Source: a virus (lineage: Duplodnaviria; Heunggongvirae; Uroviricota; Caudoviricetes). Taken from it: a stretch of DNA of 64,000 bases. A model generated the notes under the pieces. It saw only the letters and a list, made by a program, of their open reading frames with translations, did no database searches and was not told the origin of the DNA. The DNA is taken from the IMG/VR virus record IMGVR_UViG_2537561875_000003; one strand, written 5' to 3'. Below, in pieces: positions 16,363 through 33,001 of the stretch; the first letter of the stretch is position 1; every line of letters starts with the position of its first letter. A program made the position numbers and the translations under genes.

Positions 16363-16392
16363 TTTAAGCCATCCAAACAACACAGCGATGAG

Positions 16393-16602
16393 GTGAACGT
16401 GAAACTTTTAGCAAACATAGATGAGGGCGTAGCAATTGACCTTGAAAAGGTTGCGTGCCTTCTGCGTGAAAAAGACACAAAAAAAACATTGGTTATTTTG
16501 GTTTCTGGCAGTCGCTTTGTCATAGAGCAGCCTCTTACGGAGGTATTGAAGATGATTAGTGACTACGAAGTTATGAGCAAAGAGGAGAAGGGTCTCGGTT
16601 AA
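16393..16602 (+). CDS. Hypothetical protein, first gene of the leftward (pL-like) operon
   Basis: GTG start with GAGGTG RBS; 69 aa. It is not arginine-rich, so not an obvious N. Confidence 0.35.
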   Translation: MNVKLLANIDEGVAIDLEKVACLLREKDTKKTLVILVSGSRFVIEQPLTEVLKMISDYEVMSKEEKGLG

Positions 16603-17206: not shown

Positions 17207-17731
17207 ATGCTGAATAAAGAAAGACTTGATGAGTTATTAGATTATTCGCCTGATTCAGGGTTATTTACTTGGAAGGTTAACCGCCGGGGAAAGGCTAAGT
17301 CTGGATGTATCGCAGGAAGCAAAAATGGACAAGGTTACATTCTCATAAAAATTGACGGGAAGTTTTATTTTGCTCATCGCCTCGCGTGGCTAGTTACGCA
17401 TGGAACATTCCCAGTCAACATGATAGACCACATTGATGGCAACAGAGAAAACAATAAAATCAATAACCTAAGAGAAGCCACCGCTGAACAAAATATGTGG
17501 AATAGCGCAGCCGGGAAAAATAACAAAACAGGAGTAAAGGGTGTTAGCTGGGATGGCAGAAGGAAAAGATTCCGGGCCAGCATATCCATAAAAGGGAAAA
17601 ACAAAGAAATAGGGAGTTATTTGTCACTTAAAGATGCTGAGTCGGCAATAAAGGATTATCGGCTGAAACTCCATGGCAAATTTGCAAATAACGAAGTTAT
17701 TAATAACAACCTTTTGGAGGGGAAACCATGA
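17207..17731 (+). CDS. HNH homing endonuclease with an AP2 DNA-binding domain
   Basis: HNH_3 motifs (IDHIDGNRENNKINNLR) plus an AP2-like segment (GVSWDGRRKRFRASI). The region is AT-rich. Confidence 0.65.
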   Translation: MLNKERLDELLDYSPDSGLFTWKVNRRGKAKSGCIAGSKNGQGYILIKIDGKFYFAHRLAWLVTHGTFPVNMIDHIDGNRENNKINNLREATAEQNMWNSAAGKNNKTGVKGVSWDGRRKRFRASISIKGKNKEIGSYLSLKDAESAIKDYRLKLHGKFANNEVINNNLLEGKP

Positions 17732-18699
17732 GCGAAATAATGGATTTAGTCGTCATCGAGAAAAGGAACGCGATGGCGGTTTTCACCAATAACGACCAAC
17801 TCGATCCGCTTATCGAAGCGATCGAAAAAGAGGCTCGCAGTCTGGTGCCGGACGTGACCACCAAAAAAGGCCGCGACGCCATCGCATCCATGGCTCACAA
17901 GGTGGCGCGCTCTAAAACCTACATCGACAACGCAGGTAAAGACCTGGTCGCTGAGCTGAAGGCGCTGCCAAAGCAGATTGATGAAAGCCGCCGCGTTGTC
18001 CGTGAGCGTCTCGATGCACTGAAAGATGAAGTGCGTCGCCCGTTGACCGAATGGGAGGCGGAGCAGGAACGCATTAAGGCCGAAGAAGCCATGCTCGCCC
18101 TTCACGTCGAAGCACTGGCCATGAATGAAAACTTCGATCGGCGGCTGGCAGCTCGTATTGAGTCTGACCACGAAATGGCTCTGCTGATGAATGACGCTTT
18201 CGATCGTGAGCAGGCAGATAAAGCGGCTGAGGCTGAGCGCCAGCGCATTGCCCATGAAGAAGAAATTAAGCGACTGGCAGCAGCTGCAGCAGCCCGCGAA
18301 GTTGAGCAGCGCGCACAGCGTGAACGTGAAGAAGCGGCGCATCGTGAAGCTGTGTTGAAAGCACAAGCTGAGCAGGCAGAGCGAGATCGCATTGCAGCCG
18401 AGCAGAAAGCTGAGGCTGACAAGCAGGCCGCTATCGAAGCGGAGCGCCGCAAAGCTCAGGAAGAAGCCGATCGCATCCGCCGCGAGGCAGAGCAACGCGA
18501 ACAGGCCCGCCTGGCTGAGGATAAACGCAAAGCCGATGAGCAGGCGCGACGCGAAGCCGACGTTAAGCACCGCAAGGCTGTAGGCACTGAAATCGTCAAA
18601 GCTCTTCTGGCCAATACCAGCCTTACTCGGGATCAGGCTATCGAGGTGCTCACCGCGGTTAAAGACGGCCGCATTCTTCATACCGGTATCAGTTACTGA
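17728..18699 (+). CDS. Coiled-coil phage protein (Glu/Ala/Arg-rich)
   Basis: 323 aa with a long EAERQR/AEQKAEADK-type coiled coil; coupled to its neighbours. Confidence 0.4.
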   Translation: MSEIMDLVVIEKRNAMAVFTNNDQLDPLIEAIEKEARSLVPDVTTKKGRDAIASMAHKVARSKTYIDNAGKDLVAELKALPKQIDESRRVVRERLDALKDEVRRPLTEWEAEQERIKAEEAMLALHVEALAMNENFDRRLAARIESDHEMALLMNDAFDREQADKAAEAERQRIAHEEEIKRLAAAAAAREVEQRAQREREEAAHREAVLKAQAEQAERDRIAAEQKAEADKQAAIEAERRKAQEEADRIRREAEQREQARLAEDKRKADEQARREADVKHRKAVGTEIVKALLANTSLTRDQAIEVLTAVKDGRILHTGISY

Positions 18700-18700
18700 G

Positions 18701-18904
18701 GTGCTTATGAACATCAAATGTGAATGCACAGACATGCGCACATCTGTAGGCCCACATAACACGTTAACCGTCGAGCTGGAAGACGTGGTGCTGTCGGGAA
18801 CAGTTAACAGTCGTGAAGTCCTCATGCAACTGGATTGGGACGTGGTGATCGAATGTCTGGCGGAACATGGCTACGTCATTACTCATCGGGAGAAAGCAGC
18901 ATGA
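18701..18904 (+). CDS. Hypothetical protein
   Basis: 67 aa ORF. Confidence 0.3.
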   Translation: MLMNIKCECTDMRTSVGPHNTLTVELEDVVLSGTVNSREVLMQLDWDVVIECLAEHGYVITHREKAA

Positions 18905-19055
18905 GCGCGGCGGAAAAATGGGATGACGACGAATTCATTCAGCTGATGAGCGATGCGATCGGCGAACGTGATTTCGACGATGACGAACCAGTAAACCTTT
19001 CTGCGGAACGGCAGAACCCGGTGATCAGCTGGGATGAATTCGCGGGGAATTTTCA

Positions 19056-19709
19056 ATGACGGATAAAAAAGTATACGCCGCTATCAGCGCTGTGGCCGGA
19101 GAGCTGGCAGAGAAAGGCATCAGCAAGGCCAGAAAACAGGGCAGCCAGGTCAACTACGCATTCCGTGGGATCGATGACGTTTACAACGCTCTGGCCCCTG
19201 CCCTGGTGAAGCACAAGTTACTGATCCTCCCGCGGTGTACTGAGCGGTCATGCTGTGAACGAACCAGCAAAAATGGTGGCGCGTTGTTTTATGTAACCGT
19301 CCGGGCTGAGTTCGATTTTGTCAGCACGGAGGACGGCAGCATTCATACCGTCGTCACCTACGGCGAGGCGATGGATAGCGGCGATAAAGCAACGAACAAG
19401 GCCATGTCGATTGCGTACAAATATGCAGCCTTTCAGGCGTTCTGCATCCCTACAGAAGAGACGGCTGTGGACCCTGACTATGAGGCTCACCAGGTAAGGC
19501 CAGCAGACGCAGATCAGATTCTCGCTGATTTCACTGCTTACGCAGGCTCAGAGAACGATCCGAAGGCCCTCCAGGATAACTACGGAAAAGCATGGAACAG
19601 CCTTCATGGCTTCCCTGGGCATCAGGCGAAGTGCAGGGTCGTTACCGGCATCCGCCTGAGAGAGCTGAAACAAGCCGCAAGTGGTGGCAGCCATGAAAGT
19701 AACAGCTGA
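19056..19709 (+). CDS. erf: ERF-family single-strand annealing protein
   Basis: ERF motifs (KISKARKQGSQVNYAFRGIDDVYNAL...). Confidence 0.7.
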   Translation: MTDKKVYAAISAVAGELAEKGISKARKQGSQVNYAFRGIDDVYNALAPALVKHKLLILPRCTERSCCERTSKNGGALFYVTVRAEFDFVSTEDGSIHTVVTYGEAMDSGDKATNKAMSIAYKYAAFQAFCIPTEETAVDPDYEAHQVRPADADQILADFTAYAGSENDPKALQDNYGKAWNSLHGFPGHQAKCRVVTGIRLRELKQAASGGSHESNS

Positions 19710-19983
19710 GTCAATCCTGTCCATCCTGCGCAAGGACGCGCGGAACAACATTACGGTATTTCATCGCTGGCAGACCGCAGCAGGTGCCCTCGGGCACAAC
19801 GCAGGGATAACCCTGAATTTTCATGAACCTTATTACGCCGGGTGGGCGCCAGCACTTGAGATGAAAGAAGTGTTCATCTCGGCGCCGGAACTGGAAATGG
19901 TTAAGCCATTTCTGACCGTCGAGCGCTGGGGAAACGGGACGCTTGGCGGAGAAATATACCGGTTACCACGGGAGGCACAATGA
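19693..19983 (+). CDS. Hypothetical protein
   Basis: ORF overlapping the erf end. Confidence 0.25.
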   Translation: MKVTAESILSILRKDARNNITVFHRWQTAAGALGHNAGITLNFHEPYYAGWAPALEMKEVFISAPELEMVKPFLTVERWGNGTLGGEIYRLPREAQ

Positions 19984-20285
19984 ATAAGCAGAGCATCACA
20001 CCAGAGCAATTCCGCGCCGTCGCCGGAACCATGCCTGCCTGTCGCGCAGCGGATGCGCTGGGGATTAGCCAGGCAAACTTCTACCGCCTGGCACAGAGCT
20101 ATTCCATCAGCACAGCGTTTGTCTACAAGCCCTGGAAGCCAGAAGAGAAGCAGATCGCCGCTGAAATGCGCGCTGCAGGCGAGTCGCATAAAAGCATCGC
20201 AATGAAGATGGGCCGCAGCGTTGCGTCGGTATCCAGGACTTTAAGCCGCATGAGAAAGGCAGACACGAAAAGAGGTGCGCAATGA
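19980..20285 (+). CDS. HTH DNA-binding protein
   Basis: 101 aa with a predicted HTH (ALGISQANFYRLAQS). Confidence 0.4.
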   Translation: MNKQSITPEQFRAVAGTMPACRAADALGISQANFYRLAQSYSISTAFVYKPWKPEEKQIAAEMRAAGESHKSIAMKMGRSVASVSRTLSRMRKADTKRGAQ

Positions 20286-20809
20286 CTGATTATGGCGGAT
20301 CGAAAACTCCAAAAAATGAACGTGACTACTGGCAAACGCCGATTGAAATTTTCAACGCGCTCGACCGCGAGTTTGGCTTCTGGCTGGATGCTGCAGCCTC
20401 TGAGAGTAATGCGCTATGCGCTCACTACCTCACTGAGCTGGATGACTCGCTGAACAGCGAATGGACGTCATACGGGGCGATATGGTGTAACCCTCCCTAT
20501 TCCGATATCGGCCCGTGGGTAGAAAAAGCTGCTGAGCAATCCCGGGCGCAGTCTCAGGCTGTAGTGATGTTGTTACCGGCTGACATTTCTACCGGCTGGT
20601 TTATTTCAGCCATGCAATCAGCTGATGAACTCAGACTCATAACCGGCGGCCGTGTTCAGTTTGTTCCGGCATCCGTTACAGGAAAGCGCAAGAGCAACCC
20701 CAAAGGCTCGCTCCTGTTTATCTGGCGCCCGTACATCACCCCGCGACACATCATCACGACCGTATCGCTGGCTGAGTTAAAGCGGATCGGAAATCTGGAG
20801 GCAGCATGA
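20282..20809 (+). CDS. Phage N6-adenine DNA methyltransferase (Dam-like)
   Basis: NPPY catalytic motif (CNPPYSD) and the PF05869-like layout. Confidence 0.8.
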   Translation: MTDYGGSKTPKNERDYWQTPIEIFNALDREFGFWLDAAASESNALCAHYLTELDDSLNSEWTSYGAIWCNPPYSDIGPWVEKAAEQSRAQSQAVVMLLPADISTGWFISAMQSADELRLITGGRVQFVPASVTGKRKSNPKGSLLFIWRPYITPRHIITTVSLAELKRIGNLEAA

Positions 20810-21723
20810 CGCCAGAAGAACAGGAAAACGCTCTCCGCGCCCAGGCTCGTCGCTGCGCAGAAGAGATAACCAAAGCGATGAGCGTAAAGCCTAAACCGAA
20901 GTGGAACGCTGTATGCCCCCCCTATCCTTCGCAAGCACTACGAGAAGGTAAAGCCGATGGGTGTCAGCCTGGTGAAATTTGTCAGTGTTATTGGCCGCAT
21001 GAATGGGCGGTATGGAGTGGAATCATGAAAGAACGCGGAATGATTTTTAACGGGGAGATGGTGCGGGCCATTCTCGACGGACGGAAGACGCAGACCCGGC
21101 GCCCTATCAAATGGAAACAGACGCGATTCACTGAAATTGGTGAGCGTGAAGATGGTAGCCGCTGGCCTTGGAGTGAAGACGCAGAGCATGCTTGCGATTT
21201 CTGGCACCCATGCCCATTCGGCGCAGTCGGCGACCGCATCTGGGTGAGAGAGACCTTTTGCCCGGTAGATGACACTCAATATGGCGGGGAGAAGTGGGTG
21301 GATTACCGAGCAACTCCTAAGTTTGAAGCAAGCCACCCGGCAGGCTGGGACTGCGCGCCTAATGATGCTGAAGCCCTCAAATGGCGCCCATCTATCCACA
21401 TGCCGCGCTGGGCCAGCCGCATTCTGCTGGAAATCACCGACGTGCGCGTGGAGCGGCTGAACGCTATCAGCGAAGAGGACGCACAAAGCGAGGGCGTTCA
21501 TACCGAGGTATGGGACCAGACTGTAGTCGCAAGGAATTACGCGGCAATTGATGAGTTTTTCCAGTTTTGGTCCGATGACATGCCCCACTACGTAGAAATG
21601 AATCAACTATATCGGTCCTCATTCAGAAGCCTGTGGGACTCCATCTACGGCGAGGAAAGCTGGAAGGCCAACGGTTGGGTTTGGGTCATTTCGTTCAAAC
21701 GCGTTGAAGGCGGTGCAGCATGA
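20806..21723 (+). CDS. ASCH/PUA-like domain protein
   Basis: MVRAILDGRKTQTRRP matches the ASCH signature (ILxGxKTxTxR). ATGA coupling to the methylase. Confidence 0.45.
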   Translation: MTPEEQENALRAQARRCAEEITKAMSVKPKPKWNAVCPPYPSQALREGKADGCQPGEICQCYWPHEWAVWSGIMKERGMIFNGEMVRAILDGRKTQTRRPIKWKQTRFTEIGEREDGSRWPWSEDAEHACDFWHPCPFGAVGDRIWVRETFCPVDDTQYGGEKWVDYRATPKFEASHPAGWDCAPNDAEALKWRPSIHMPRWASRILLEITDVRVERLNAISEEDAQSEGVHTEVWDQTVVARNYAAIDEFFQFWSDDMPHYVEMNQLYRSSFRSLWDSIYGEESWKANGWVWVISFKRVEGGAA

Positions 21724-22424
21724 GATTCTTTGAAATCGACTCCAGATTTTTGATCGATACAGCATTTCACCGCCTGGAAATCATTCGTGATGATGGCTTG
21801 TATCGCCACCTGCGCATGCAGCAGCCTGGAACATCCTGCTACTACTACGACGTTATCACCTGGCCTGGTTACTTAACCGTAACCGGCGACATGGGAACGT
21901 GGACATTCAGTCGCATCGCGGACATGTTCGACTTTTTTGGCGCCTGGGAAGGTGGAATCAATACCCATTACTGGGCTGAAAAACTGGAGGCTGGCGCGGG
22001 ATGTTCGGCACGCGAAATGCTGGCGAAAGAGTATGACCACGACGCGTTCTGCAAAAGCCTGAAAGAGTCTATGAGTGATTACCTGGAGGACGACGAAAGC
22101 GAGGAGCCAGAAGAAGATGACGACTGGGACGACGATGACGAAACTCCGGATAGCGAAAAGGCTAAGGTGCGCGAAATCGTCCGTGAGTTGTGTCTGGCTG
22201 AGTTTAACAACGATTTTGAAGCCTATAACGCTGTTTATGATGCCGACTGGCCCGAAAGGTTTAGCGCCTGGGATATCTGCGACGGGCTGACCTTTAAGAC
22301 GTATACCAGCCATTTCCGGTGGATTTTATTCGCTATCACCTGGGCAATCAGCAAATACCACAATGCGAAGATTGTTGATAAAGCGATGGCTACGTTTCTG
22401 GCCGTGAAAGGAGTCGAAGCATGA
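21720..22424 (+). CDS. Hypothetical acidic protein
   Basis: 234 aa with a DDESEEPEEDDDWDDDDE stretch. Confidence 0.35.
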   Translation: MRFFEIDSRFLIDTAFHRLEIIRDDGLYRHLRMQQPGTSCYYYDVITWPGYLTVTGDMGTWTFSRIADMFDFFGAWEGGINTHYWAEKLEAGAGCSAREMLAKEYDHDAFCKSLKESMSDYLEDDESEEPEEDDDWDDDDETPDSEKAKVREIVRELCLAEFNNDFEAYNAVYDADWPERFSAWDICDGLTFKTYTSHFRWILFAITWAISKYHNAKIVDKAMATFLAVKGVEA

Positions 22425-22642
22425 GCGCAGAACTCATCGATCAGGCCAACGAGCTGGCAGAGCGCCGGCTGGAAATGACCATCCAGAACATGCGCATCAA
22501 CCATGCGGCGGTATCGGCTACTCACTGCCGCGACTGCGGGGAAGAGATACCAGAACCGCGCTGGGAAGCTGTGGCGGGCTGTCAGCGCTGCGCTGACTGT
22601 CAGGAAGATGAGGAATTACGCGGTAAACACCGGAGGCCGTGA
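22421..22642 (+). CDS. TraR/DksA-family C4 zinc-finger protein
   Basis: CRDCGEEIPEPRW...CQRCADC. Confidence 0.6.
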   Translation: MSAELIDQANELAERRLEMTIQNMRINHAAVSATHCRDCGEEIPEPRWEAVAGCQRCADCQEDEELRGKHRRP

Positions 22643-22881
22643 TGTTCAAACTAATTCAGAGAGGTCAGCTCTTTGCCGATTGCCACGGATGGCCGGTAAT
22701 TATCGCCAGCAGCGACGAAAAGACGGTTCGCTACTGGCGCCAGGGGCGGATCAACACCGCAAGCATAGACCGCTTTAACAATGACTTCGAGCCGCTCTCT
22801 CACGAAGAGTCCCAGCAGATAAAGGCAGAGCTGGAGCAGAGCGAACACATTAAGAAACTGCGCGCCCAGCAGGCGGCGTAA
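22639..22881 (+). CDS. Hypothetical protein
   Basis: 80 aa ORF. Confidence 0.3.
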   Translation: MMFKLIQRGQLFADCHGWPVIIASSDEKTVRYWRQGRINTASIDRFNNDFEPLSHEESQQIKAELEQSEHIKKLRAQQAA

Positions 22882-22893
22882 CCGGGAGGAAAT

Positions 22894-23229
22894 ATGGCGT
22901 CTGACAAACCGATAACAGCACAGCAGGCCGCCGATTTGCTCATCGTGTCGGCGCGGGTGATCTATCGTCTCATTGAATCTGGTGAGCTCGCCGGCCGCAA
23001 GGTCGGCAACAAGTACAGAACGACCGAGGCGGCTTGTATTGCATATTTGAAAACCCCGCGCGATCCTGTCATCGCGAACGCGGGTGAACATAAAGGAGAA
23101 GTTTTATGTCAATCACCCTCAGGGGCGGCGTGTGGCACTGTCATTTCTTTACGCCGTCAGGAAAAAGAGTTAGGCGATCTCTTGGCACGGGGGACAAAAA
23201 GCAGGCTCAGGAGCTCCACGACAAGCTGA
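22894..23229 (+). CDS. xis: Excisionase (Xis-like HTH)
   Basis: N-terminal [32 protein letters not shown] is excisionase-like. The ORF overlaps the int start by about 124 nt. Confidence 0.5.
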
Positions 23230-24269
23230 AGGCGGAAGCGTGGCGGGTTGACCAGATCGGAGACCTTCCCGTCAGAACCTTCGAAGAATGCTGCATCAGG
23301 TGGCTGCGGGAAAAAGACCATAAGCGATCGCTGGATGATGACAAAACCAAAATTGAGTTTTGGCTGCAGCATTTTTCCGGCCGTGATGTCTCGAAGATAA
23401 CGGCGGAGGAAGTTCACGAAGCCGTTAACGGGATGATCAACCGTAAGCACCTGCAGGTATGGGAGAGTAAACGCGATGCCGCGGTGAGGAAGGGTAAGCC
23501 GGTTCCTGAGTACAAACCACGGCAGGTTTCTCAGGCGACGAAGGCGCAGCACCTTTCCTTCATTCGGTCCCTTCTCAGGGCCGCCGCGAATGACTGGGGC
23601 TGGATAAAAACAGCCCCTGTTATCAAAACCCGCAAGCCTATCAGTAAGCGGATACGGTGGCTGACCAGAGAAGAAGCTGAGCGGTTGATCGAGTGCATGC
23701 CGGAGAGCATTAAGCCAGTGGTGATATTTGCACTGGCAACCGGCCTGCGCCGCTCAAACATCATCGGGCTTGAGTGGCAGCAGGTCGATATGCAGAGAAA
23801 GGTTGCATGGGTAAATCCGGAGAACGCAAAAGCGGGCAAGGCGATTGGCGTAGCTCTGAATGATACCGCATGCAGGGTATTAAGGGATCAGATAGGGAAG
23901 CACTCCCGGTGGGTATTCGTTCATACCACGGCAAAACATCGCTCTGACGGAACGCTGACGCCCGCGGTGAGAAAAATGCGGGTGGATGACAATAACGCCT
24001 GGCGCGCCGGGCTGAAAAAAGCGGGGATAGAGGATTTCCGTTTTCACGACCTCCGGCACACCTGGGCGAGCTGGCTGATTCAGTCCGGCGTCCCGCTTTC
24101 TGTTTTGCAGGAAATGGGCGGATGGGAGAGCATCGAGATGGTGCGTCGGTATGCTCACCTGGCGCCGAACCATTTGACCGAACACGCACGGAAAATTGAC
24201 GCCATTTTTGGCGCTAGCGACACAAATACGACACAAGGAGGAAATCAGGCTGGTTTAAAACTGGCGTAA
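23106..24269 (+). CDS. int: Tyrosine integrase, DLP12 IntD-like (argU-specific family)
   Basis: 387 aa, highly similar along its length to IntD as I recall it (...[44 protein letters not shown]). It converges on the tRNA 3'-end copy. Confidence 0.9.
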
Positions 24270-24280
24270 GTTACTGTTTC

Positions 24281-24330
24281 TTAATGGTACGCCCTACAGG
24301 GTTCGAACCTGTGACCTACGGCTTAGAAGG
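24281..24330. repeat. att core copy: 50 bp identical to the 3' end of tRNA-Arg(UCU). It is the junction between prophages A and B.
   Basis: ttaatggtacgccctacagggttcgaacctgtgacctacggcttagaagg is identical to 62714-62763. Confidence 0.85.
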
Positions 24331-24474
24331 GCGAAAATCTTTGATTCCTTTCAATTACCATCGATTTCATTAAATTTCACTTCATTGTTTTTAAAAGAGT
24401 TTATAGTGTTGAATGATTTCATACAGTCTCTTATCATTTCATCACAACTTGACCCGTAACCTGACCTTAAAACT

Positions 24475-25695
24475 ATGGCTAGCACTCTTTTAACAGACAG
24501 CAAAATCAGGGGCCTGAAGCCTAAAAATTCAGCCTATTATACCTGGCAAGCAGCCGCAACCCGCGGCACTGGCAGACTCGGTGTAAAGACTTACCCATCA
24601 GGAAGAAAAACATTCGTCTATCGGTATTTCATCAGCGGAAAAGAGAAGTTTATCGGTCTGGGCGACTTCCCTACCCTTACTCTTTCCGATGCAACCGAGA
24701 AAGCCAGAGCCGCTGCGGCCAGCATATCCGATCCCGCTAAGGCCCAGGTAGAACATGCATCACTTAAAAAGCTGTTTGATGATTATATTGCAGACCAAAA
24801 GGCCAGAGGCAAGCGATCTTACGACAAAACACAAAACCGAATTAATCAGGTTCTGGCAAGCCCGCATATCACCCCAGAGATGCCAGCAAAAGATGTAACC
24901 CCGGACCATATCAAACGCATACTTTCAGAATTTATTGCGAGGGATGCGCGCGCCGGCGCAAACAAAGTACGTTCGAATCTGCATGCCATTTTTAACTTTG
25001 GCCTGTTTGCAGATAACGACCCTGCGAATATCGATAAGAAAACAGTTTATGGTCTGGATCGCAACCCGGTGGCCGCGGTCCCATCGCAGCGCGGAGCAGA
25101 TAAAGCCCTTGACCGATTTTTATCATGGGATGAATTATCTGCGCTGCTGGCAGTCCTTTCCCGCCCAGCAGAAGCAATCCCAATGCATCCCGATTTCGTT
25201 CAGCTGCTGTTGTGTTGTTTACACACAGCAGGGCAGCGCCCGTGGGAGCTAATGACAAACACAAAAGATAACTGGGATAAGAAAGAAAAAACGTTGACGG
25301 TGCCGCCGCACATATCTAAAACGGGTGATTATCATGTCATTCCGTTGAGTGATTCAGCGACGCAGATCCTGCATGTGATGGAAAAACGCTATCCCAAATC
25401 CGATTTTCTTTTCCCCGCGGATACGGCTGAAGGGCATCTTCTTTCAGCTGAGTTCGGGAAGCAGGTAAGAAAATTTTGTGAACGGGAGCCATTTAATAAA
25501 TTCACGCCGAGGGACGTTCGGCGCACATTTAAAACGCTCGCCGGCGCGATGGGTGTAAGCACCGAAATGCGCGACAGATTGCAGAACCATAAAAGAGCCG
25601 GCGTATCAGCCAAGCACTATGACCGATACGACTACATTAAGGAAAAACGCGAAATTATATCGCAATGGGAAGAAAAGTTACTTTCACTCTGTTGA
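24475..25695 (+). CDS. int: Tyrosine integrase, P4-like (DUF4102 arm-binding N-terminus)
   Basis: 406 aa with an N-terminal LTDSKIRGLKPK arm-binding domain and a C-terminal catalytic R...H..R..Y region. Confidence 0.85.
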   Translation: MASTLLTDSKIRGLKPKNSAYYTWQAAATRGTGRLGVKTYPSGRKTFVYRYFISGKEKFIGLGDFPTLTLSDATEKARAAAASISDPAKAQVEHASLKKLFDDYIADQKARGKRSYDKTQNRINQVLASPHITPEMPAKDVTPDHIKRILSEFIARDARAGANKVRSNLHAIFNFGLFADNDPANIDKKTVYGLDRNPVAAVPSQRGADKALDRFLSWDELSALLAVLSRPAEAIPMHPDFVQLLLCCLHTAGQRPWELMTNTKDNWDKKEKTLTVPPHISKTGDYHVIPLSDSATQILHVMEKRYPKSDFLFPADTAEGHLLSAEFGKQVRKFCEREPFNKFTPRDVRRTFKTLAGAMGVSTEMRDRLQNHKRAGVSAKHYDRYDYIKEKREIISQWEEKLLSLC

Positions 25696-25776
25696 TCGGA
25701 TGTCGGGCCCAGCAGTGCAGTCGGGGAAGCCTGCTGGGTCCTTCCAGAAGGTGCCTCTATGCTGGAGTACTGACGC

Positions 25777-26100
25777 TCAAATTGGGCATTTATCTTCATC
25801 CTTCCCTATCCGGTTGATAACGAATGTCACTATTCCTAACACTACGACGTCGTCCAATGCCTCGCCTTCCAGCGCCTCACCATCACGAGTAATAAACGCC
25901 TTCCCAAAAACTTTCGCAAAATCTGTACCGCCGGAGTACTGGATCAATACCGTGTCCTGCTGCTTTGGTTTAACGGAGAAATCAACTACGGCATAACCAG
26001 TTTCTGTTTGCACGATCCGAGTATTGGGGCCGGTACCACAGAGTTTATCGACGGTCAGACGCCCTTCTACATAGTCTGCTGCTGGCGATGGAAAGCCCAC
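25777..26100 (-). CDS. Hypothetical protein, second gene of a 2-gene moron operon
   Basis: GTG start with GGAGGG RBS, coupled to the upstream ORF. Confidence 0.35.
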   Translation of the reverse strand: MGFPSPAADYVEGRLTVDKLCGTGPNTRIVQTETGYAVVDFSVKPKQQDTVLIQYSGGTDFAKVFGKAFITRDGEALEGEALDDVVVLGIVTFVINRIGKDEDKCPI

Positions 26101-26102
26101 GA

Positions 26103-26342
26103 TTACAGCCCTCCATTCGGGTTGTAAAGCTGGAAAGTGCGATCGTCACCTTCCTGAGTTGAGACGTCGCGGAATGTTGTCACGTAGTGCTCTATCCACT
26201 GGTTAGCCTGGCGCGGTGACCAGTGCCAGTTATATCTCTCCAGTTCCTGCAGAAATCGCCTGGTGGTGAGGATGCGCTTTCCGTTAGACAGGATATCTAT
26301 TGCGTTCCGGCACGCCGTCTCGATTTCGTATAAACGCGGCAT
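26103..26342 (-). CDS. Hypothetical protein, first gene of a 2-gene moron operon
   Basis: Start at the internal Met with a GGGGGAAG RBS. Confidence 0.35.
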   Translation of the reverse strand: MPRLYEIETACRNAIDILSNGKRILTTRRFLQELERYNWHWSPRQANQWIEHYVTTFRDVSTQEGDDRTFQLYNPNGGL

Positions 26343-26636
26343 ACTTCCCCCTATCAAACATACTGTATATAAATACAGTAAATGCATGTGTGCAGCAGAT
26401 CAATATTGGCAGTGGCTATCAATGATCGGCGCTGACGTAACGCATTGATGCCTCAATTCGACTGGCAACATTGAGCAGGGAAATATTTATAAATCGTCTT
26501 CACCCCCCCTCATATTACATCGGCTACCGACCCAATGTTTTAACTGCTCAGACCAGAAATATCTGGAAGCTTTAGGCATCTTCTTGGAAGATAGATGAGC
26601 GCAAAGACGCACACAGCAATAATTTATTCATCGCTT

Positions 26637-26669
26637 TCCCCCCGGCGTCCCTCCGGGGGGATTTTTTCT
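26637..26669 (+). terminator. Intrinsic terminator on the plus strand (ccccccggcgtccctccgggggg plus T-run)
   Basis: Perfect 8-bp GC stem followed by TTTTTTCT. No plus-strand ORF upstream. Confidence 0.45.
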
Positions 26670-26704
26670 CTACGTGCCCGTCAGGTAATCAGTAACGTAA
26701 ATAT

Positions 26705-27505
26705 TTAACCTAAATCGGTGATTCCCCATGCTGCACTGAGGTAGGCACTTACACTATCGAGGACTGATGCAACCTGAGCCTGAGTCAGCGCTGTTTCGAA
26801 AATAAGCTCCATCCCCATCGTTATGGCTGCGCCTGCAGGGTATGCAGCTGGCGCATGGTGTGAACCGATCCGGATCGTGCGGTCGGTATAAGCGGTTCGG
26901 TTGACCAGCGCTTTCGAGTTCTGCCAGTTAAGCGGCCCTCCCTGCCGGGCAGCAATCCTGGCGATCCCATTATCACCATCAACCAGCTCCACAAAAGCGG
27001 CCCACTTCGTTGTGTCGTATGCCGCGCTGTAGTAGTTGATCATGTTCGTTGGCGTTACGTTGTTGTCCTCTACAAAGGCCCCGTAAAGACTTTGCCCGGA
27101 AAACAGAAAAGCGAGTCCGTCGCCGCGATACACCGCCGGTGAGCCGGAATAGCTGTAGTTACCCATCATGAAGGCCTGCTGGGTTTCGGTAGCTGCCGTT
27201 GGTTTTACCGGCTTACAGATCACGATATGGGTCTGGTTTTTGGTAGAAACTTTTCCGGTATCAAAACAGTTACCGAAACTACAGACCGCCCCGAAATCAG
27301 CCTGGATCGATGGCGAACCGACTTTGGTCAGTGGAGCATTGTTGTCGGCACGGTTTCTCATGCTCAGCTCTAAGGTTCCGCCGTGGATGTACATCGCTTT
27401 CAACCCTGCGATAACAGGTAAATCCGGCTGCATGAAATGCCCTTTTTTCGGATGAGTTCCCGGAATAACGACGTCACCGAGTTTTGGGATATAGATATTG
27501 TTCAT
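26705..27505 (-). CDS. Tail-fibre-associated protein (distal receptor-binding or fibre-assembly candidate)
   Basis: 266 aa, immediately downstream of the tail fibre gene. Confidence 0.35.
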   Translation of the reverse strand: MNNIYIPKLGDVVIPGTHPKKGHFMQPDLPVIAGLKAMYIHGGTLELSMRNRADNNAPLTKVGSPSIQADFGAVCSFGNCFDTGKVSTKNQTHIVICKPVKPTAATETQQAFMMGNYSYSGSPAVYRGDGLAFLFSGQSLYGAFVEDNNVTPTNMINYYSAAYDTTKWAAFVELVDGDNGIARIAARQGGPLNWQNSKALVNRTAYTDRTIRIGSHHAPAAYPAGAAITMGMELIFETALTQAQVASVLDSVSAYLSAAWGITDLG

Positions 27506-27511
27506 AAGAAA

Positions 27512-29458
27512 TTAACCTTTAATCAGTGCATTGTAGAGTGACGTTGCGACCAGATTGCTGCCCGTAGCATTCGGGTGCAGGTTATCGAGAAAGCAGCCGA
27601 GGCTGTTCATTTCAGCCCAGGAGTCGAAAAGGTCATAGATGCTGAAAAACTCGACATTCAGCGTCTGTGACAGGTCGTACATGACGTCACGGAAATCAAC
27701 GATGGGCGTTATCGCTGTTCCGTTCGTGCGGGGTGGTGCCATCAGAATAAATCCCACGTCAGGGAGCACAGCACGACAGGCGGCCATGTACGTTTGCAGA
27801 GCAGTACGGAATGTGGCTGTCGATTCAGAAATCCTGTAATCGTTATTCCCGATGACAATCGCAATCACGTCAGGCTGCATTGTGCTCAGGTACTCCGCGA
27901 TTTTGTCGGAGAACAGCAGGAACTGATCGGCAAGAATCCCGGAATTCCCCGCCTTGCTCATCACACACCCCGCCACGCCACTGCGCCACAGATAAAACCC
28001 GTGGATAGCGACACGCCCCGTGTTGCCATCGGTTTTGATGTATATGGTTCTGACCTCGTCAGCCATGCCTGTCAGCAACACCGATTTTGTCGTGCCGGTA
28101 TTCCCGCAGACAACCTCTGTCCACTGAGTGATCCCGCCAGCGTCGTAGCCGTACTGGAAACGCCCGTTCAAATCCTGGTAGTAAATACGGCAGTCCGTGC
28201 AGCGGACATTCGTCACCCTGAAATAGTCGGTCGCCATGGTCGTATTGACTGACTGACCATCAATTCCGCAGCCGTACAGCGGCGCACCACTTGTCGGCGA
28301 TGAGTCATACAGATTCCACCCTGCAGAGCGGTTGATATTCGAGCCATCGCGTGCCGCTCCGTAGTTAACCGTGCGCCAGCCAAGACCGGCATCACCATAA
28401 TCATCATGCAGCAGCCCGGCGATAGCGGTCGCCAGTTCGTTATTCTGCGTCCAGCTGTCGCCCGTCAGCATGAAGTGTGGCCGGGTTGCAAGGCCAGCTT
28501 TGAGCTGCGCTTTCTTTGCTTTCCAGCGCCACAGGGTTCGCCCGTCGGTATGCAGAGGAATGTTATAAGCGGCGGTGTACATACGCCGCTGATACCATCT
28601 TGCGAAAATTCCCCTGATGTTTGGTCCGATACCCGTCGCATCAAGCTCGCCATCCTGGAACCAGAACGGGACATTTCCGGCGGCATCCATCATCCCTGGT
28701 ACAAAACCAGGGGAAACCAGAGGGACATTCTGGTTAAGCGCGCTGGCGATGATACCGTTGATATAAGCCCATATTTTTTCCAGCAGCCCCGTCGCAATTG
28801 CCGACGCATCCAGCCCACCATTCCAGTACACCGGTACATTGCCGGCGCTGTCCATGAATAACGGGAAAAACAGAGGGGAAACCCCCGTTACCTGCACATT
28901 CAACGCATCCCCCAGCCGCGCATGAACATCCTCATAGATCATCTGATACAACGATGTGGCAATCCGGGAAACCGCAAAACCGTTATCCCAGTACACAGGC
29001 ACGTTCCCGGCCCCATCGACAAAGAAAGGGAAGAAGTCACCACTGACAGCCCCGCTGGCAATAAACTCATCGATAAACTGGATAACTGCGTCGACAGAAC
29101 TCTGTGATGGCATCCTGCGCCCGGTTGCCGTCAGCGTCCCGGCGACATTTCGGTATTCGATCGCCAGAGCGGAATCATCCGGACTGCGTACGTAGGTGGT
29201 GGCACCTACTGGAATACTGGCAATATCAGCCTGAGCCTCTTCCACACTCTGGTATTGCTTGCCAAGTGGGATCAGGTTCTGGCGCGTTTCATCCACAAGT
29301 GCGGCGTTGTCTTCCTGCATTTTCCGCCAGGAGTCCAGCGGTTCACCGGCGCGATCGGGAACAGTAGCCGCAGGCCCGTTCGCCAGCTCATCGATTCGCT
29401 TTGCATTATCGAGCAGCACCTCCGGAGAAGTGCTCCCCAACGGCGGATTAAAGGCCAT
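27512..29458 (-). CDS. Tail fibre with a C-terminal SGNH/GDSL esterase domain
   Basis: Conserved fibre N-terminus (MAFNPPLGSTSPEVLLDNAKRIDELANG), three internal approx. 40-aa repeats (FFPFFVDGAGNVPVYW...), and SGNH blocks (LTGDSWTQN; GNNDY; DNLHPN). Confidence 0.7.
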   Translation of the reverse strand: MAFNPPLGSTSPEVLLDNAKRIDELANGPAATVPDRAGEPLDSWRKMQEDNAALVDETRQNLIPLGKQYQSVEEAQADIASIPVGATTYVRSPDDSALAIEYRNVAGTLTATGRRMPSQSSVDAVIQFIDEFIASGAVSGDFFPFFVDGAGNVPVYWDNGFAVSRIATSLYQMIYEDVHARLGDALNVQVTGVSPLFFPLFMDSAGNVPVYWNGGLDASAIATGLLEKIWAYINGIIASALNQNVPLVSPGFVPGMMDAAGNVPFWFQDGELDATGIGPNIRGIFARWYQRRMYTAAYNIPLHTDGRTLWRWKAKKAQLKAGLATRPHFMLTGDSWTQNNELATAIAGLLHDDYGDAGLGWRTVNYGAARDGSNINRSAGWNLYDSSPTSGAPLYGCGIDGQSVNTTMATDYFRVTNVRCTDCRIYYQDLNGRFQYGYDAGGITQWTEVVCGNTGTTKSVLLTGMADEVRTIYIKTDGNTGRVAIHGFYLWRSGVAGCVMSKAGNSGILADQFLLFSDKIAEYLSTMQPDVIAIVIGNNDYRISESTATFRTALQTYMAACRAVLPDVGFILMAPPRTNGTAITPIVDFRDVMYDLSQTLNVEFFSIYDLFDSWAEMNSLGCFLDNLHPNATGSNLVATSLYNALIKG

Positions 29459-29534
29459 AGTTTTTGCTCCAAAAAAGAGGTTTCGCCCAAACGAGGGTTT
29501 GAGCGAAAAGAGTTAATTAGGGGAATTTGTGGTT

Positions 29535-32500
29535 TTAGGCGACGTCGCCGGGGTATGTGGCGTCGTCGTACTGGTAGAAAATTTCTTTATATTCAGGTGC
29601 AGTAATCTGACAGTTGCTGTCACCCGATGGGGCAACCTCCTGGACTATCCCATGCCGCGCACCCTTTTCACTGTCGCAGAACAATAACTTCGGCAGATCA
29701 ATATCTGGGTCGTCCATAATCCAGTCGCCGGGATACAGGTCGTCGTTGTACGGCACCGTCAGCGTGAAATCATCTACCCGTTGCGGCGTTAGCATTCGCG
29801 ATGATGGTCGACCGTCCTGAAACTGTATCCAGCAGCGAGGATTCGCGTAGCTCCAGTCCAGTGGCTCCGTGACGTGCAGCGTGATTTCCTGGAAGTCGTA
29901 AATCATCGCGTCAATCAGGCAACTTTGGGTTTTCCCGGTTGGAATATCGTCGGACAAAATGATGTGATCACCGAAGTCATGACACCATCCCAGCATCGAC
30001 GTCGTAGCCGTATAGGTTCGGCGTTGGTGGAGATATTTCATTAACCGACGCATCCCGATACGCCAGGCGCGATCTGCAGTCATGGCAACATCAATGGTGT
30101 ATGCCTCCGTTTTGCGCGGAAAAGGATTTTCCGGCGTCCGGCACTGTACGGTTTCCTCCGCCCAGGTCACAGGGTTGATATATTTCACATCCACGCCATC
30201 AAAATCATCCTCCGACGGGACCCTGAATGACGTCTGCATTTCCTCGACGGTATCCTGAGGAGTAATGATCCCTGTCCAGCTTTTGACGCCCTCTCTCCCG
30301 ACAGAAAGCAACCCGTCAGACAGCAGAAAATACCCCATGCCAGCCTCGGCTATTTTGTCGAAAATATCCTTTGCTGACGTGCTGTCACTGCTTGCCTGGT
30401 GATCAAAATATTCGCCCCTTGGCGTCCAGTAGGTAGCCTCCAGCGTACTGAGCGCCGCAATGTCGATCTGGTCGTCGCGATATCCCAGACTGCGGGCAAG
30501 ATGCAGGAACGCACCGCTGATTGTCCTGTCACCACCGCCATCATAATTTCGTGTGGCGACAACACTCACACGCTTGTCTGACTGGGCCGCCAGCTGGCCG
30601 CCGGTTTCAACCGTGATCCCTATTGTTGATATCCCTGCGTAGGAGGTCGGACGGGAAAGCAAACGACCTCTGAGCGCCTGCCAGAACATGCTGTCTCTCG
30701 CGTTGTTGCTCCCCTGCTCGTTACGGCGGCGGCATCGAACCTCCACCAGCCCGGGAGAGGACAGATCAAAACGCTCTGTAAACCCGAGACCATTAATGTT
30801 TTTAAGCGCGTAAACCCCTGGCTTACTCGTCCACCCTGATCCGGAACCATAAACGCGATACTGGATTTCATACTCGACATGGCGGACCCGCTTATTCCCG
30901 TTGTTCTGGAACCCGCAAATTCCGTTTGGGAAAGCAAAGTTGACCTCGAAGGCGTCCACAACTTCATTTTGCGGGCAGGCCAGAAAGGGGCCGAGCCAGG
31001 TTTCATTATCGTTAATACCAGACGCGGCAAAATCCACGACGGTACGGGTCATAAAGCCTGACCAGGTGCTGTCAACGACACCGTTAACCACACGCTGTAC
31101 GGTCGCAGAGGGACCATCAGTAGACGCTATCTGGTATTCGTTGCCACGGTGCGCCAGGGAAATCCGCTGAGTGCCTTCCGGCAATCCGGAAAAGGCAGTG
31201 CCAGAATCGTATGCCAGCGTCACGCTGGCTGTTACCGCAGGGATTCCGCCGCTGGAGGCTGTACCAGCTGTAAATACCGGGCTGTCGCCAAATACTGACG
31301 CAGGCAGGAATGATGACGTAATGGAGCCGCCACGCCAGGGGCTGGAGATCTCGACGATACGTATCACGCCGCCATCATCCTGAGCAATGAGCCCAGAACC
31401 ATTCAACCCGCCGTTAATCGCTGCGAGCAAGCCAGACATTGTGCCGTAGTTGGCGACCAGAGATATGGTATAGGTGATACCCTGCCAGGTCAGAGCAAAG
31501 GTCTGGCTGGTTGTCGTAAAGTCATACGTTGACGGCGAGGCACTGGCGCGTAATACCGCAGTCGCTCCCCCTGTTCCCGGAACGGCGTCCTGGTGAGGGG
31601 TATACGTGGCGATCTGCAGGTCATAGTCAGTACCGTTAAACGTTAGGGTGACAGGCATTCCGCTGAATGGCGCAATCTCTGACACGACGTCGCCTGTCAG
31701 CACGTTAAAACCGCCCTCGATGGATACCTGATAATTCACTGGCGCTTTCAGGGTGACAATTGCACCGGCGATCCAGCCAGGAGGAAGTTTGTTCTCATCC
31801 TCGTCTTCATCATTATCATCATCGACATCGAGGCCAGAAAACGAGACAGAGGCACCGCTGACGCTCATGGCATCAGCAACGATATCACTGGCTTCAGGGG
31901 CAGTCTGAGCCATATCGAGGCCGCTGCCGCTCGAAGTTCCACCAACTTCCGTTGAGTTGAACCATATCTCACTGCGACGATCCCCGGCCACATTATCGCC
32001 GGGCCCATAGCTGGTATATGAAAAGCCCTCGCCTAAGGTCAACGCCGGAGTTTCCCCTACCCGAAAATCTCCACCGGTATAGGAGAAACGTCCATATCCA
32101 AGGCAGACAAACATTTCTACCGTCATTCTGGTGGGATCAGCGGGGTCGAATCGCGTTACCGGCTGCACCAGGTAATCCGGGTAAATCCGGTTTCGCCCAA
32201 ACGCCTCCCTAACGGGATCACCGAGTTTTGCGGTGTTTGCCCGCGCCGGGTTCAGATCCAGCGATGAAGCGTTACTGGATGAAAAACCGCCCAGCTCTGG
32301 TTTTGGGGCAAAGAATAATGCATAGGCCGTAGACGCAATGGATACGGCCACCGAAACCCACGCGGCAATTTCAAGACCCGTGCCATACGGAATGGGATAT
32401 ATCCGCACGTCACTGTCTGGCCGCAACAAACATAACGGCCATTCCGCCGGGGGGACTGCCTGGCCGTTCAGCTCGATCACGACAGGATGAGTTTTATCCT

Positions 32501-32989: not shown

Positions 32990-33001
32990 ATTTGCCTCAG
33001 G

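What the first reader, a model, noticed from the sequence alone, without database searches (positions are those of the whole stretch)
24281..24330. Tandem (polylysogenic) integration of two different prophages at tRNA-Arg(UCU), marked by identical 50-bp tRNA 3'-end repeats
The 50 bp at 24281-24330 are identical to 62714-62763, which form the 3' end of the intact tRNA-Arg. The left element ends with an IntD-type integrase converging on the repeat, as DLP12 does at argU. The right element lies between the repeat and the intact tRNA, so it is the more recent insertion. A third copy is expected left of the window. Tandem arrays at one tRNA predict recombinational instability and hybrid excision products.
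Basis: seen in the sequence. Interest (0 to 1): 0.5.

Follow-up and report, generated by a model that had tools for sequence, protein, structure and literature searches.

The report
Two prophages stacked at tRNA-Arg
Two unrelated but complete-looking Klebsiella pneumoniae prophages sit head-to-tail in the tRNA-Arg(UCU) gene next to folD, each with its own integrase; this is a real but ordinary and already described arrangement.

Summary
Bases 24281-24330 equal 62714-62763 exactly, with none expected by chance. The second copy is the anticodon-loop-to-CCA part of an intact tRNA-Arg(UCU) plus 4 nt. The window is Klebsiella pneumoniae.

- **Left element (A, 1-24280):** ends with an excisionase and an integrase 64% identical to E. 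coli IntD. The integrase sits in the same convergent position, 15 nt from the tRNA end, as DLP12 at argU.
- **Right element (B, 24331-62713):** a complete-looking HK97-like prophage. It has a P4-type integrase at the far end and an AlpA-like excisionase next to the tRNA. Joining its two ends across the repeat rebuilds the attP of an isolated phage, Providencia PSTCR3.
- **Independence:** other K. pneumoniae genomes show the empty site, A alone, B alone, and the same A|B tandem. So these are two separate elements.

Two points need correcting. The order of insertion is plausible but not proven. The third copy lies about 21 kb outside the window. In relatives it is the native tRNA variant, which differs from the 50-mer at two core bases and by one base in the TTAA tail.

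Tandem arrays at tRNA genes are well documented, so interest is low.

The parts
1..24280 (.). Right-hand 24.3 kb of prophage A, cut by the window edge. It runs from the portal fragment and terminase through lysis genes, Q, two phage tRNAs, nin genes, O/P replication genes, cII/cro/cI and an ERF recombinase to Dam, Xis and Int.
   Evidence: Matches Klebsiella temperate phages (ST15-VIM1phi2.1 positions 23872-46342, about 96%). Pfam labels come from identical genes in L003, L013 and L175. It is 99.98% identical over 12.7 kb to an A-only lysogen scaffold.
22894..23229 (+). Excisionase of prophage A; it overlaps the start of intA.
   Evidence: Pfam HTH_17, E=2.9e-8. PHROG 2907 excisionase, E=1.6e-37.
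23106..24269 (+). Integrase A, an IntD/DLP12-type tyrosine recombinase. Its stop codon lies 11 nt before the repeat and 15 nt before the tRNA-equivalent 3' end.
   Evidence: Pfam Phage_integrase, E=1e-41. 64% identical to E. coli K-12 IntD over all 387 aa with no gaps. Same geometry as argU/intD.
24281..24330 (-). Middle att copy: a displaced tRNA-Arg 3' fragment. It forms the hybrid junction between the intA arm of A on its left and the intB arm of B on its right.
   Evidence: Exact 50-bp repeat. The left flank is identical to the intA arm beside the intact tRNA in A-only lysogens. The right flank is identical to the B arm in B-only lysogens.
24331..62713 (.). Prophage B, 38.4 kb and complete-looking. 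It is an HK97-like siphovirus with a P4-type integrase, UmuD-like genes, tail fibres, gpJ, tape measure, major tail protein, capsid, ClpP protease, portal, TerL/TerS, lysis genes, Q, primase, helicase, cro/cI, Band_7, Rha and an AlpA-like gene.
   Evidence: Pfam and PHROG hits. Mosaic matches to Klebsiella phages ST13-OXA48phi12.2 and ST16-OXA48phi5.3.
24447..24466 (+). First of two copies of a 20-bp motif, ACTTGACCCGTAACCTGACC, 9 bp upstream of intB. It is a candidate IntB arm-type binding site.
   Evidence: The motif occurs only twice in the window, against 0 expected. It is conserved at the same position in the attP of Providencia phage PSTCR3. The binding function is inferred.
24475..25695 (+). 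Integrase B (P4/CP4-57 type). It starts 144 nt after the middle repeat and reads away from it.
   Evidence: Pfam Arm-DNA-bind_3, Phage_int_M and Phage_integrase. The N-terminal domain matches the CP4-like integrase structure 3jtz. 71% identical to the PSTCR3 integrase. Unrelated to IntA.
62463..62645 (+). AlpA/Xis-like small DNA-binding protein of B, the last gene before the tRNA. It is the candidate excisionase.
   Evidence: PHROG 66, 'excisionase and transcriptional regulator', E=6.6e-6. 73% identical to the ORF just upstream of attP in phage PSTCR3.
62647..62666 (+). Second copy of the 20-bp motif, ACTTGACCCGTTACCTGACC, 48 bp before the tRNA-proximal core.
62714..62763 (-). tRNA-proximal att copy: the phage-supplied 3' part of the intact tRNA plus TTAA.
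   Evidence: It carries the 'T..G' variant, not the native K. pneumoniae 'C..A' variant.
62718..62794 (-). Intact tRNA-Arg(UCU), the argU equivalent. It is a hybrid of a host 5' part and a phage-derived 3' part.
   Evidence: ARAGORN. 99% identical flank to the empty site of K. pneumoniae ATCC 13883.
63134..64000 (+). folD, the host gene on the right of the integration site.
   Evidence: 83.7% identical to E. coli folD. Pfam THF_DHG_CYH on the same gene in L174.

Best explanation
This is a tandem array of two independent temperate prophages in the single tRNA-Arg(UCU) gene of Klebsiella pneumoniae, next to folD.

**How the repeats arise.** Each phage carries in its attP a copy of the tRNA from the anticodon loop to the 3' end. 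Its tyrosine integrase recombines this copy with the host gene. The tRNA is rebuilt with a phage-supplied 3' part, and the previous 3' part is left as a fragment at the far end of the prophage.

**Prophage A** has lambdoid early genes and E217-like myovirus late genes. It uses an IntD/DLP12-type integrase plus Xis that read towards the att core.

**Prophage B** is an HK97-like siphovirus. It uses a P4-type integrase that reads away from the core. An AlpA-like excisionase lies on the other side of attP, so integration places int and xis at opposite ends of the prophage.

**The layout** is [host flank]-core3 (outside the window)-A-core2 (24281-24330)-B-core1 (62714-63, inside the tRNA)-folD. Core2 is a hybrid site shared by both elements.

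**Shown versus inferred.** Shown: the repeat, both integration modules, the empty site, A-only and B-only lysogens, and the attP homologues. Inferred:
- strand exchange occurs on the anticodon side of tRNA position 60;
- core3 exists in this genome;
- both elements can still excise;
- B arrived after A.
For: - **Repeat and tRNA:**
- **Species and source:** Klebsiella phage matches. The window is 100% identical over 21.2 kb to K. pneumoniae GCA_000300935.1 scaffold JH930422.1.
- **Empty site:** ATCC 13883 has tRNA-Arg directly between folD and the hiuH-side flank.
- **A alone:** contigs with an identical IntA show the intA arm, then the intact tRNA, then folD (L174, L176, L177). This accounts for 22 of the 24 contigs read.
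- **B alone:** contigs with an identical IntB show the native flank, a tRNA fragment, the B arm and intB (L007, L008, L010).
- **Same A|B tandem elsewhere:** seen beside several different A variants (L002-L006, L009; IMG/VR loci L317, L369).
- **attP of A-type phages:** in KpnBHU6 the order is intA, core, then a P' arm beginning AAAGTAGAGCG. The same core plus P' arm starts the prophage record MK448228.
- **attP of the B type:** the window's right arm, the core and the window's left arm are collinear with the attP region of the isolated circular phage PSTCR3. That region includes alpA-like (73%) and int (71%) genes and the 20-bp arm motif.
- **Far-end copy of A-type prophages:** 91 IMG/VR contigs hold the core plus the A P' arm. 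In 47 of them the left flank is the native K. pneumoniae flank and the core is the native variant.
- **Both ends on one contig:** 13 single contigs carry both ends with the native left flank, and three more carry both ends with a different left flank. Two have native 'C..A' at the far end and phage 'T..G' in the tRNA. One IntA-identical contig carries the far-end copy together with an A|B junction.
- **Gene content:** both elements look complete.
Against: - The far end of A, and therefore core3, lies outside the window. I could not fetch it for this genome, so the three-copy layout here rests on relatives.
- No excision, induction or circular-junction data exist. Either prophage could carry inactivating point mutations that ORF-level inspection does not reveal.
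- In IntB the first His of the HxxR box reads Arg (FTPRDVRRT, read by eye). The PSTCR3 integrase shares this, so it is probably tolerated, but activity is untested.
Confidence: 0.9

Rival explanations
1. The order of arrival was the reverse of the first reader's. B integrated first into the tRNA, and A later integrated into the displaced fragment at B's far end. That gives the same map.
For: - Both paths give L-core-A-core-B-core-tRNA; this is my reasoning from the attP maps.
- PMC7192596 states that a second element may enter either regenerated core, and that integrases differ in preference for recombinant att sites.
- B-only lysogens exist and could serve as a starting point.
- The two core polymorphisms cannot tell the paths apart, because the 3' part of core2 is A-derived in either case.
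Against: - The displaced fragment lacks the tRNA 5' half of the anticodon stem. It reads GGCGA instead of GCCGT to the right of the loop. It is therefore an imperfect attB for an integrase that exchanges strands in the anticodon loop, while the intact tRNA is a full attB (inference).
- Every tandem I saw has A distal and B proximal. None of the 91 junctions with an A P' arm has B's alpA arm on the left. The numbers are small and B is rarer than A.
Confidence: 0.25
2. The 62-kb region is one composite element, or a prophage with an internal tRNA pseudogene, and not two independently integrated phages.
For: Only the bare fact that the two blocks are contiguous, and that prophage predictors sometimes merge them. 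For example, the IMG/VR contig behind L317 spans intA, the core and intB.
Against: - A and B occur separately at the same site with exact junctions.
- Each has its own integrase, excisionase, repressor, replication, packaging, head, tail and lysis genes.
- Each half reconstitutes a separate attP known from phage genomes.
Confidence: 0.02
3. One or both elements are defective, cryptic remnants like DLP12, and the repeats are fossil scars that no longer act as att sites.
For: - The model for A's integration module, DLP12, is cryptic in E. coli K-12.
- The native K. pneumoniae locus already carries a roughly 160-bp IntD-like remnant, showing that decay happens at this site.
- B lacks the invertase and second tail-fibre pair present in relatives.
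Against: - Both integrases and both excisionase candidates are full-length ORFs. All expected modules are present without obvious truncation in the window.
- Near-identical copies occur in many genomes with different neighbours, which suggests recent mobility.
- The att cores are intact and identical.
Confidence: 0.15

Closest known systems
Tandem arrays of integrative genetic elements at tRNA/tmRNA genes, as catalogued by Islander and TIGER (Hudson et al. 2015, PMC4383910; Mageeney et al. 2020, PMC7192596)
   Same: - An intact tDNA lies at one end.
- A co-oriented 3' tDNA fragment and an integrase gene go with each member.
- The identity block is the anticodon-centred type.
- Islander counted 125 arrays of two or more among 3919 islands.
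- The mechanism is described in the same terms in the literature.
   Different: Nothing in kind. Here the two members use integrases of unrelated subfamilies on the same core, and the fragment for the distal member lies outside the window.
Cryptic prophage DLP12 at argU of E. coli K-12 (intD/xisD)
   Same: - Target is tRNA-Arg(UCU).
- The integrase is 64% identical to IntD (85% for the variant in L009).
- int is on the opposite strand, converging on the tRNA 3' end with a 15-nt gap.
- xis overlaps the start of int.
   Different: Prophage A looks complete in the window, with lambdoid early genes and E217-like myovirus late genes. DLP12 is a decayed, IS-ridden remnant. The host is Klebsiella, where argU lies next to folD.
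Providencia phage PSTCR3 (MW057855), an isolated temperate phage with an alpA-like gene, attP and int module
   Same: The attP region is collinear with B's two ends joined across the core. Shared features are the integrase (71%), the AlpA-like ORF (73%), the tRNA-Arg core and the 20-bp arm motif on both sides.
   Different: The host genus differs, and the rest of the genome is not shown to be related. The PSTCR3 core carries a T/A combination at the two variable positions, where B has T/G.
Klebsiella pneumoniae prophages at tRNA-Arg (Kpn49R in BAA-2146, PMC4048246; ST15-VIM1phi2.1 and others, PMC7371120)
   Same: Same species and the same hotspot. tRNA-Arg was the most common tRNA beside prophages in 16 clinical strains. 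ST15-VIM1phi2.1 is syntenic with A and is bounded on its left by the same core.
   Different: In the passages I read, those reports describe single occupants at tRNA-Arg. 'Tandem' has 0 occurrences in PMC7371120, and the one tandem pair in PMC4048246 is at tRNA-Leu.

Membership tests
Tandem array of integrative elements at a tDNA (Islander definition) | An intact tRNA gene at one end of the array | tested here: met
   tRNA-Arg(tct) at 62718-62794 on the minus strand.
Tandem array of integrative elements at a tDNA (Islander definition) | A co-oriented 3' tDNA fragment for the tRNA-proximal member (B) | tested here: met
   24281-24330 is an exact copy, in the same orientation, of the tRNA 3' 46 nt plus 4 nt.
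Tandem array of integrative elements at a tDNA (Islander definition) | A co-oriented 3' tDNA fragment for the distal member (A) | not testable with these tools
   It lies about 21 kb left of the window, and the same genome could not be fetched. In relatives the feature is present. 47 of 91 IMG/VR junctions show the native flank, the native core and the A P' arm. 13 contigs carry both ends with the native left flank, and three more carry both ends with another left flank.
Tandem array of integrative elements at a tDNA (Islander definition) | Each member has its own integrase gene | tested here: met
   IntA at 23106-24269 and IntB at 24475-25695, which are unrelated to each other.
Tandem array of integrative elements at a tDNA (Islander definition) | Members are separately mobile: the site is found empty or singly occupied in the same species | tested here: met
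   Empty in ATCC 13883. A alone. B alone.
IntD/DLP12-type integration module | Full-length homology of the integrase to E. coli IntD | tested here: met
   246 of 387 residues identical (64%), with no gaps.
IntD/DLP12-type integration module | Target is tRNA-Arg(UCU), with int converging on the tRNA 3' end | tested here: met
   There is a 15-nt gap between the int stop codon and the tRNA(-equivalent) 3' end, both here and in K-12. In A-only lysogens the same arm abuts the intact tRNA.
P4/CP4-57-type tyrosine integrase with AlpA-type directionality factor | N-terminal Arm-DNA-bind_3 domain plus a C-terminal tyrosine recombinase domain | tested here: met
   Pfam PF13356 (E=4.8e-13), PF22022 and PF00589. 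PDB 3jtz, a CP4-like integrase N-terminal domain, E=2.6e-6.
P4/CP4-57-type tyrosine integrase with AlpA-type directionality factor | A small AlpA/Xis-like HTH protein adjacent to attP | tested here: inconclusive
   The 60-aa ORF at 62463-62645 hits PHROG 66 only weakly (E=6.6e-6). It is, however, 73% identical to the ORF at the same place in PSTCR3. Its function is not tested.
P4/CP4-57-type tyrosine integrase with AlpA-type directionality factor | Canonical catalytic residues (R, K, HxxR, H/W, Y) | tested here: inconclusive
   By eye, R (GQRPWE), K (SKTGDYH), RDVRR in place of HxxR, H (QNH) and Y (HYDRY) are present. The H-to-R change is shared with the PSTCR3 integrase.
Anticodon-loop class of tRNA att sites (Williams sublocation A) | Identity block runs from the anticodon loop to the tRNA 3' end (about 45 nt) | tested here: met
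   Both attP types share the tRNA from CCTTCT (anticodon loop) to CCA.
Anticodon-loop class of tRNA att sites (Williams sublocation A) | Strand exchange occurs within the anticodon loop | tested here: inconclusive
   The two polymorphic positions (73 and 60) travel with the int-side arm, while the native variant stays with the host flank. This places the crossover on the anticodon side of position 60, but not more precisely.

The most novel reading that the evidence does not exclude
The array may have a built-in direction. In every A|B tandem I saw, the IntD-type phage is distal and the P4-type phage is next to the tRNA, beside at least four different A variants. This could mean that IntB needs the complete tRNA while IntA-type phages tolerate, or are excluded from, recombinant sites. 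If so, the order in the array would record integrase site preference and not only arrival time. A linked point is that lysogens express a tRNA-Arg(UCU) whose discriminator base and T-loop base are phage-specified (G73A, U60C).
Probability: 0.15. Interest if true: 0.3.

Novelty: already known. Interest (0 to 1): 0.15.

Why it matters
This matters mainly for annotation. The 62 kb should be called as two prophages with a shared hybrid att site, not one oversized prophage and not a prophage with a tRNA pseudogene.

It also gives a clean natural set for testing which att sites each integrase can use in an array, and whether the hybrid products proposed for tandem arrays arise. The set comprises the empty site, A alone, B alone and the A|B tandem, with two marker polymorphisms inside the core.

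It does not open a new biological question.

Tried and rejected
1. **Reaching the far end of A in the same genome.**
   - A look-up of the window's terminase gave a 99.98%-identical proxy (L013) that reaches only 8.9 kb left of the window.
   - Walking on through IMG/VR with two proteins found many syntenic proviruses, but none closer than about 96.5% to this A. Their ends were trimmed before the att site.
   - Only cluster representatives can be looked up, so the chance of staying on the same scaffold was low.

2. **B-side look-ups.**
   - The 244-aa Rha ORF returned nothing because the ORF start was wrong. The 240-aa form worked.
   - The 60-aa AlpA-like protein gave only three short contigs.

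3. **The second tRNA-Arg(tct) as an att copy.** I rejected the tRNA at 6097-6173. It is a complete, diverged, phage-borne gene beside a tRNA with anticodon CAT.

4. **A reverse-order (B distal) array.** IMG/VR locus L237 looked like a candidate. I rejected it because its left flank has no alpA-like gene, no intB and no arm motif.

5. **Using the two core polymorphisms to date the insertions.** I rejected this because both orders predict the same pattern.

6. **A window protein to reach A's left end.** B's UmuD-like gene is only 59% identical to the one at the left end of MK448228, so an exact-match look-up was not possible.

Full report
**Observation.** Bases 24281-24330 and 62714-62763 are the same 50 bases. 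No other match exists in the window at up to 3 mismatches, and none appeared in 100 shuffles. A scan at up to 6 mismatches also found only these two. ARAGORN finds an intact tRNA-Arg(tct) at 62718-62794 on the minus strand. The repeat is therefore the tRNA from position 31 of the anticodon stem, through the anticodon loop, to the CCA end (46 nt), plus 4 nt (TTAA) beyond it. Identity ends abruptly on both sides. Another tRNA-Arg(tct) at 6097-6173, beside a tRNA with anticodon CAT, is a diverged phage-borne gene and not an att copy.

**Where the window comes from.**
- The right flank is folD, only 83.7% identical to E. coli.
- All close phage matches are Klebsiella.
- A 21.2-kb stretch of K. pneumoniae GCA_000300935.1 scaffold JH930422.1 is 100% identical to window 14475-35695.
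- In K. pneumoniae ATCC 13883 the site is empty. folD and the tRNA (99% identical to the window's right end) are followed directly by host DNA leading to a transthyretin-like gene.

**Left element (A).**
- The last two genes before the repeat are an excisionase (22894-23229) and a tyrosine integrase (23106-24269).
- The integrase is 64% identical to E. coli K-12 IntD over all 387 residues without a gap.
- It converges on the tRNA-equivalent 3' end with a 15-nt gap, exactly as intD does at argU. 'IntD-type, as DLP12 at argU' is therefore correct.
- The rest of A in the window has the usual lambdoid order: terminase, lysis, Q, nin, O/P, cII/cro/cI, recombination, Dam.
- It is syntenic with Klebsiella prophage ST15-VIM1phi2.1.
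- Its late genes, seen in a 99.98%-identical proxy, are of the E217-like myovirus type.

**Right element (B).** Between the repeat and the tRNA lies a 38.4-kb prophage with a full gene set.
- Integration and accessory genes: a P4-type integrase (24475-25695; Arm-DNA-bind_3, Phage_int_M, Phage_integrase) and UmuD-like genes.
- Virion genes: tail fibres, gpJ, tape measure, major tail protein, HK97-type capsid, ClpP protease, portal and TerL/TerS.
- Lysis, regulation and replication genes: endolysin, Q, primase, helicase, cro/cI and Rha.
- The last gene before the tRNA is a 60-aa AlpA/Xis-like protein (62463-62645).
- IntB is unrelated to IntA. It starts 144 nt after the middle repeat and reads away from it, so int and the excisionase candidate end up at opposite ends of the prophage.

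This layout is genuine. In the isolated, circular Providencia phage PSTCR3 the same parts are contiguous: an alpA-like ORF (73% identical), an arm, the tRNA-Arg core, an arm, then int (71% identical). The window's right arm, core and left arm align collinearly with it. A 20-bp motif, ACTTGACCCGTWACCTGACC, occurs only twice in the window. One copy lies in each B arm (24447-24466 and 62647-62666), at the positions where PSTCR3 also has it. I take these as candidate arm-type IntB sites; that is an inference.

**Independence of the two elements.**
- Contigs encoding exactly IntA mostly show A alone: the intA arm, the intact tRNA, then folD. This is L174, L176 and L177, which stand for 22 of the 24 contigs read.
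- L174 lies on the same scaffold as L013, whose A is 99.98% identical to the window's over 12.7 kb.
- Some contigs encoding exactly IntB show B alone: host flank, tRNA fragment, B arm, intB (L007, L008, L010).
- Most IntB contigs show the same A|B tandem beside several different A variants, with ERF, RecT or Rad52 recombinases and IntA proteins of 385-387 aa.
- Two further A|B junctions appear among IMG/VR proviruses.

So 24281-24330 is a hybrid site. Its left flank equals the intA arm seen next to the tRNA in A-only strains. Its right flank equals the B arm seen in B-only strains.

**A marker inside the core.**
- The native K. pneumoniae tRNA reads TGGCACGCCCTACAGGATTCG on the window's plus strand. 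This is the 'C..A' variant, with G73 and U60 in the tRNA.
- Both window copies read TGGTACGCCCTACAGGGTTCG. This is the 'T..G' variant, with A73 and C60.
- In A-only lysogens with this IntA, the intact tRNA carries T..G next to the intA arm.
- In B-only lysogens, the displaced fragment next to the host flank carries the native C..A.
- Two IMG/VR contigs hold a whole A-type prophage with native C..A at the far end and T..G in the tRNA.

This is what integration by exchange on the anticodon side of position 60 predicts. The phage supplies the new 3' part, and the host's old 3' part stays with the host flank. It also explains why the two copies in the window are identical: both are phage-derived.

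**The third copy.**
- It lies outside the window. From synteny, the junction should be about 21-22 kb to the left. I could not fetch that stretch of the same genome.
- A-type attP is visible in phage KpnBHU6: intA, the core, then a P' arm starting AAAGTAGAGCG. The same core plus arm begins prophage record MK448228.
- 91 IMG/VR contigs contain the core plus this arm. In 47 the left side is the native K. pneumoniae flank and the core is the native variant.
- 13 contigs carry both ends of an A-type prophage with the native left flank, and three more carry both ends with a different left flank. One has an IntA identical to the window's, with the far-end copy and an A|B junction on the same contig.
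- I therefore expect a third copy (about 0.85). It should be the native variant, differing from the 50-mer at two core positions and by one base in the 4-nt tail (TAAA in place of TTAA).

**Order of insertion.** A first and then B at the tRNA gives the same map as B first and then A at B's displaced fragment. The core polymorphisms cannot separate the two, because the 3' part of the middle copy is A-derived either way. The TIGER paper says a second element may integrate into either regenerated core, and that integrases differ in preference for recombinant sites (PMC7192596).

Two points favour B arriving last.
- Only the intact tRNA keeps both halves of the anticodon stem around the likely exchange site. 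The fragment reads GGCGA where the tRNA reads GCCGT.
- Every tandem I saw has A distal and B proximal, with no reverse case among the 91 A-arm junctions.

I rate 'B last' at roughly 0.7. It is not established.

**Instability and hybrid excision.** The two integrases are unrelated, and B's arm motif is absent from A's arms. Site-specific co-excision of A+B would therefore need mismatched arms. RecA-dependent exchange between 46-50-bp repeats is possible but would be rare; that is an inference.

**What is known.** Tandem arrays at tRNA genes are a recognised class. Islander counts 125 arrays of two or more among 3919 islands and defines them exactly as seen here (PMC4383910). tRNA-Arg is the most frequent tRNA beside K. 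pneumoniae prophages (PMC7371120). A 49-kb tRNA-Arg prophage is listed for strain BAA-2146 (PMC4048246). The finding is therefore correct and tidy, but already known in kind. The same A|B array is present in many deposited genomes.

**Verdict.** Observation confirmed and main interpretation supported, with corrections on insertion order and on the expected sequence of the third copy. Interest is low.

Noticed in passing
window 6097-6173 (-) and 6179-6256 (-): Prophage A carries its own tRNA-Arg(tct) and a tRNA with anticodon CAT (Met or Ile2-like), between the Q antiterminator and the holin. So a phage that integrates into the host tRNA-Arg(UCU) also brings a diverged copy of the same isoacceptor.
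   Followed up: partly
L016 (ATCC 13883) about 8850-9020; L007 9637-9797: The unoccupied K. pneumoniae site keeps a roughly 160-bp 3' remnant of an IntD-like integrase gene (...[23 protein letters not shown]...) directly after tRNA-Arg. This is a scar of an older DLP12-like occupant that has become part of the 'native' flank.
   Followed up: partly
window 62718-62763 compared with L016 8804-8849: Lysogens carry a hybrid tRNA-Arg(UCU) whose phage-supplied 3' part differs from the native gene at the discriminator base (G73 to A73) and at T-loop position 60 (U to C). Among IMG/VR A-type lysogens the tRNA is C..A in 37, T..G in 10 and a mixed T..A in 4.
   Followed up: partly
window 26574-29512; L002 12155-18982: B's tail-fibre pair (648-aa GDSL-domain fibre plus a 266-aa partner) is inverted relative to relatives. 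Those relatives also carry a 192-aa Resolvase-type invertase and a second fibre pair (629 + 269 aa). This looks like an invertible host-range cassette that is fixed, without the invertase, in the window.
   Followed up: partly
window 24447-24466 and 62647-62666; also 24343-24438: A 20-bp motif occurs once in each arm of B and is conserved in the PSTCR3 attP. Three GATTTCAT-type repeats also lie in the int-proximal arm. These are candidate arm-type and accessory binding sites.
   Followed up: partly
L179-L183 (contigs with the same Rha protein as window 61396-62118): B's early/Rha module is joined to at least three other integration modules in other contigs: Arm-DNA-bind_2 integrases with their own Xis, and a reversed P4-type integrase. 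This shows swapping of integration cassettes among these phages.
   Followed up: no
L012 (MK448228) 836-2323: The relative of prophage A carries a retron-type reverse transcriptase and UmuD-like genes just inside its left att site. The equivalent left-end cargo of the window's A lies outside the window and is unknown.
   Followed up: no
L254 11343-13391 and 12 other IMG/VR loci (left flank ...aagagaagtgagt): In 13 A-type junctions the DNA left of the far-end core is neither the ATCC 13883 flank nor an A-type int arm. In L254, about 2 kb of other sequence separates the core from the hiuH-side host gene. This could be another remnant or a lineage-specific flank.
   Followed up: no
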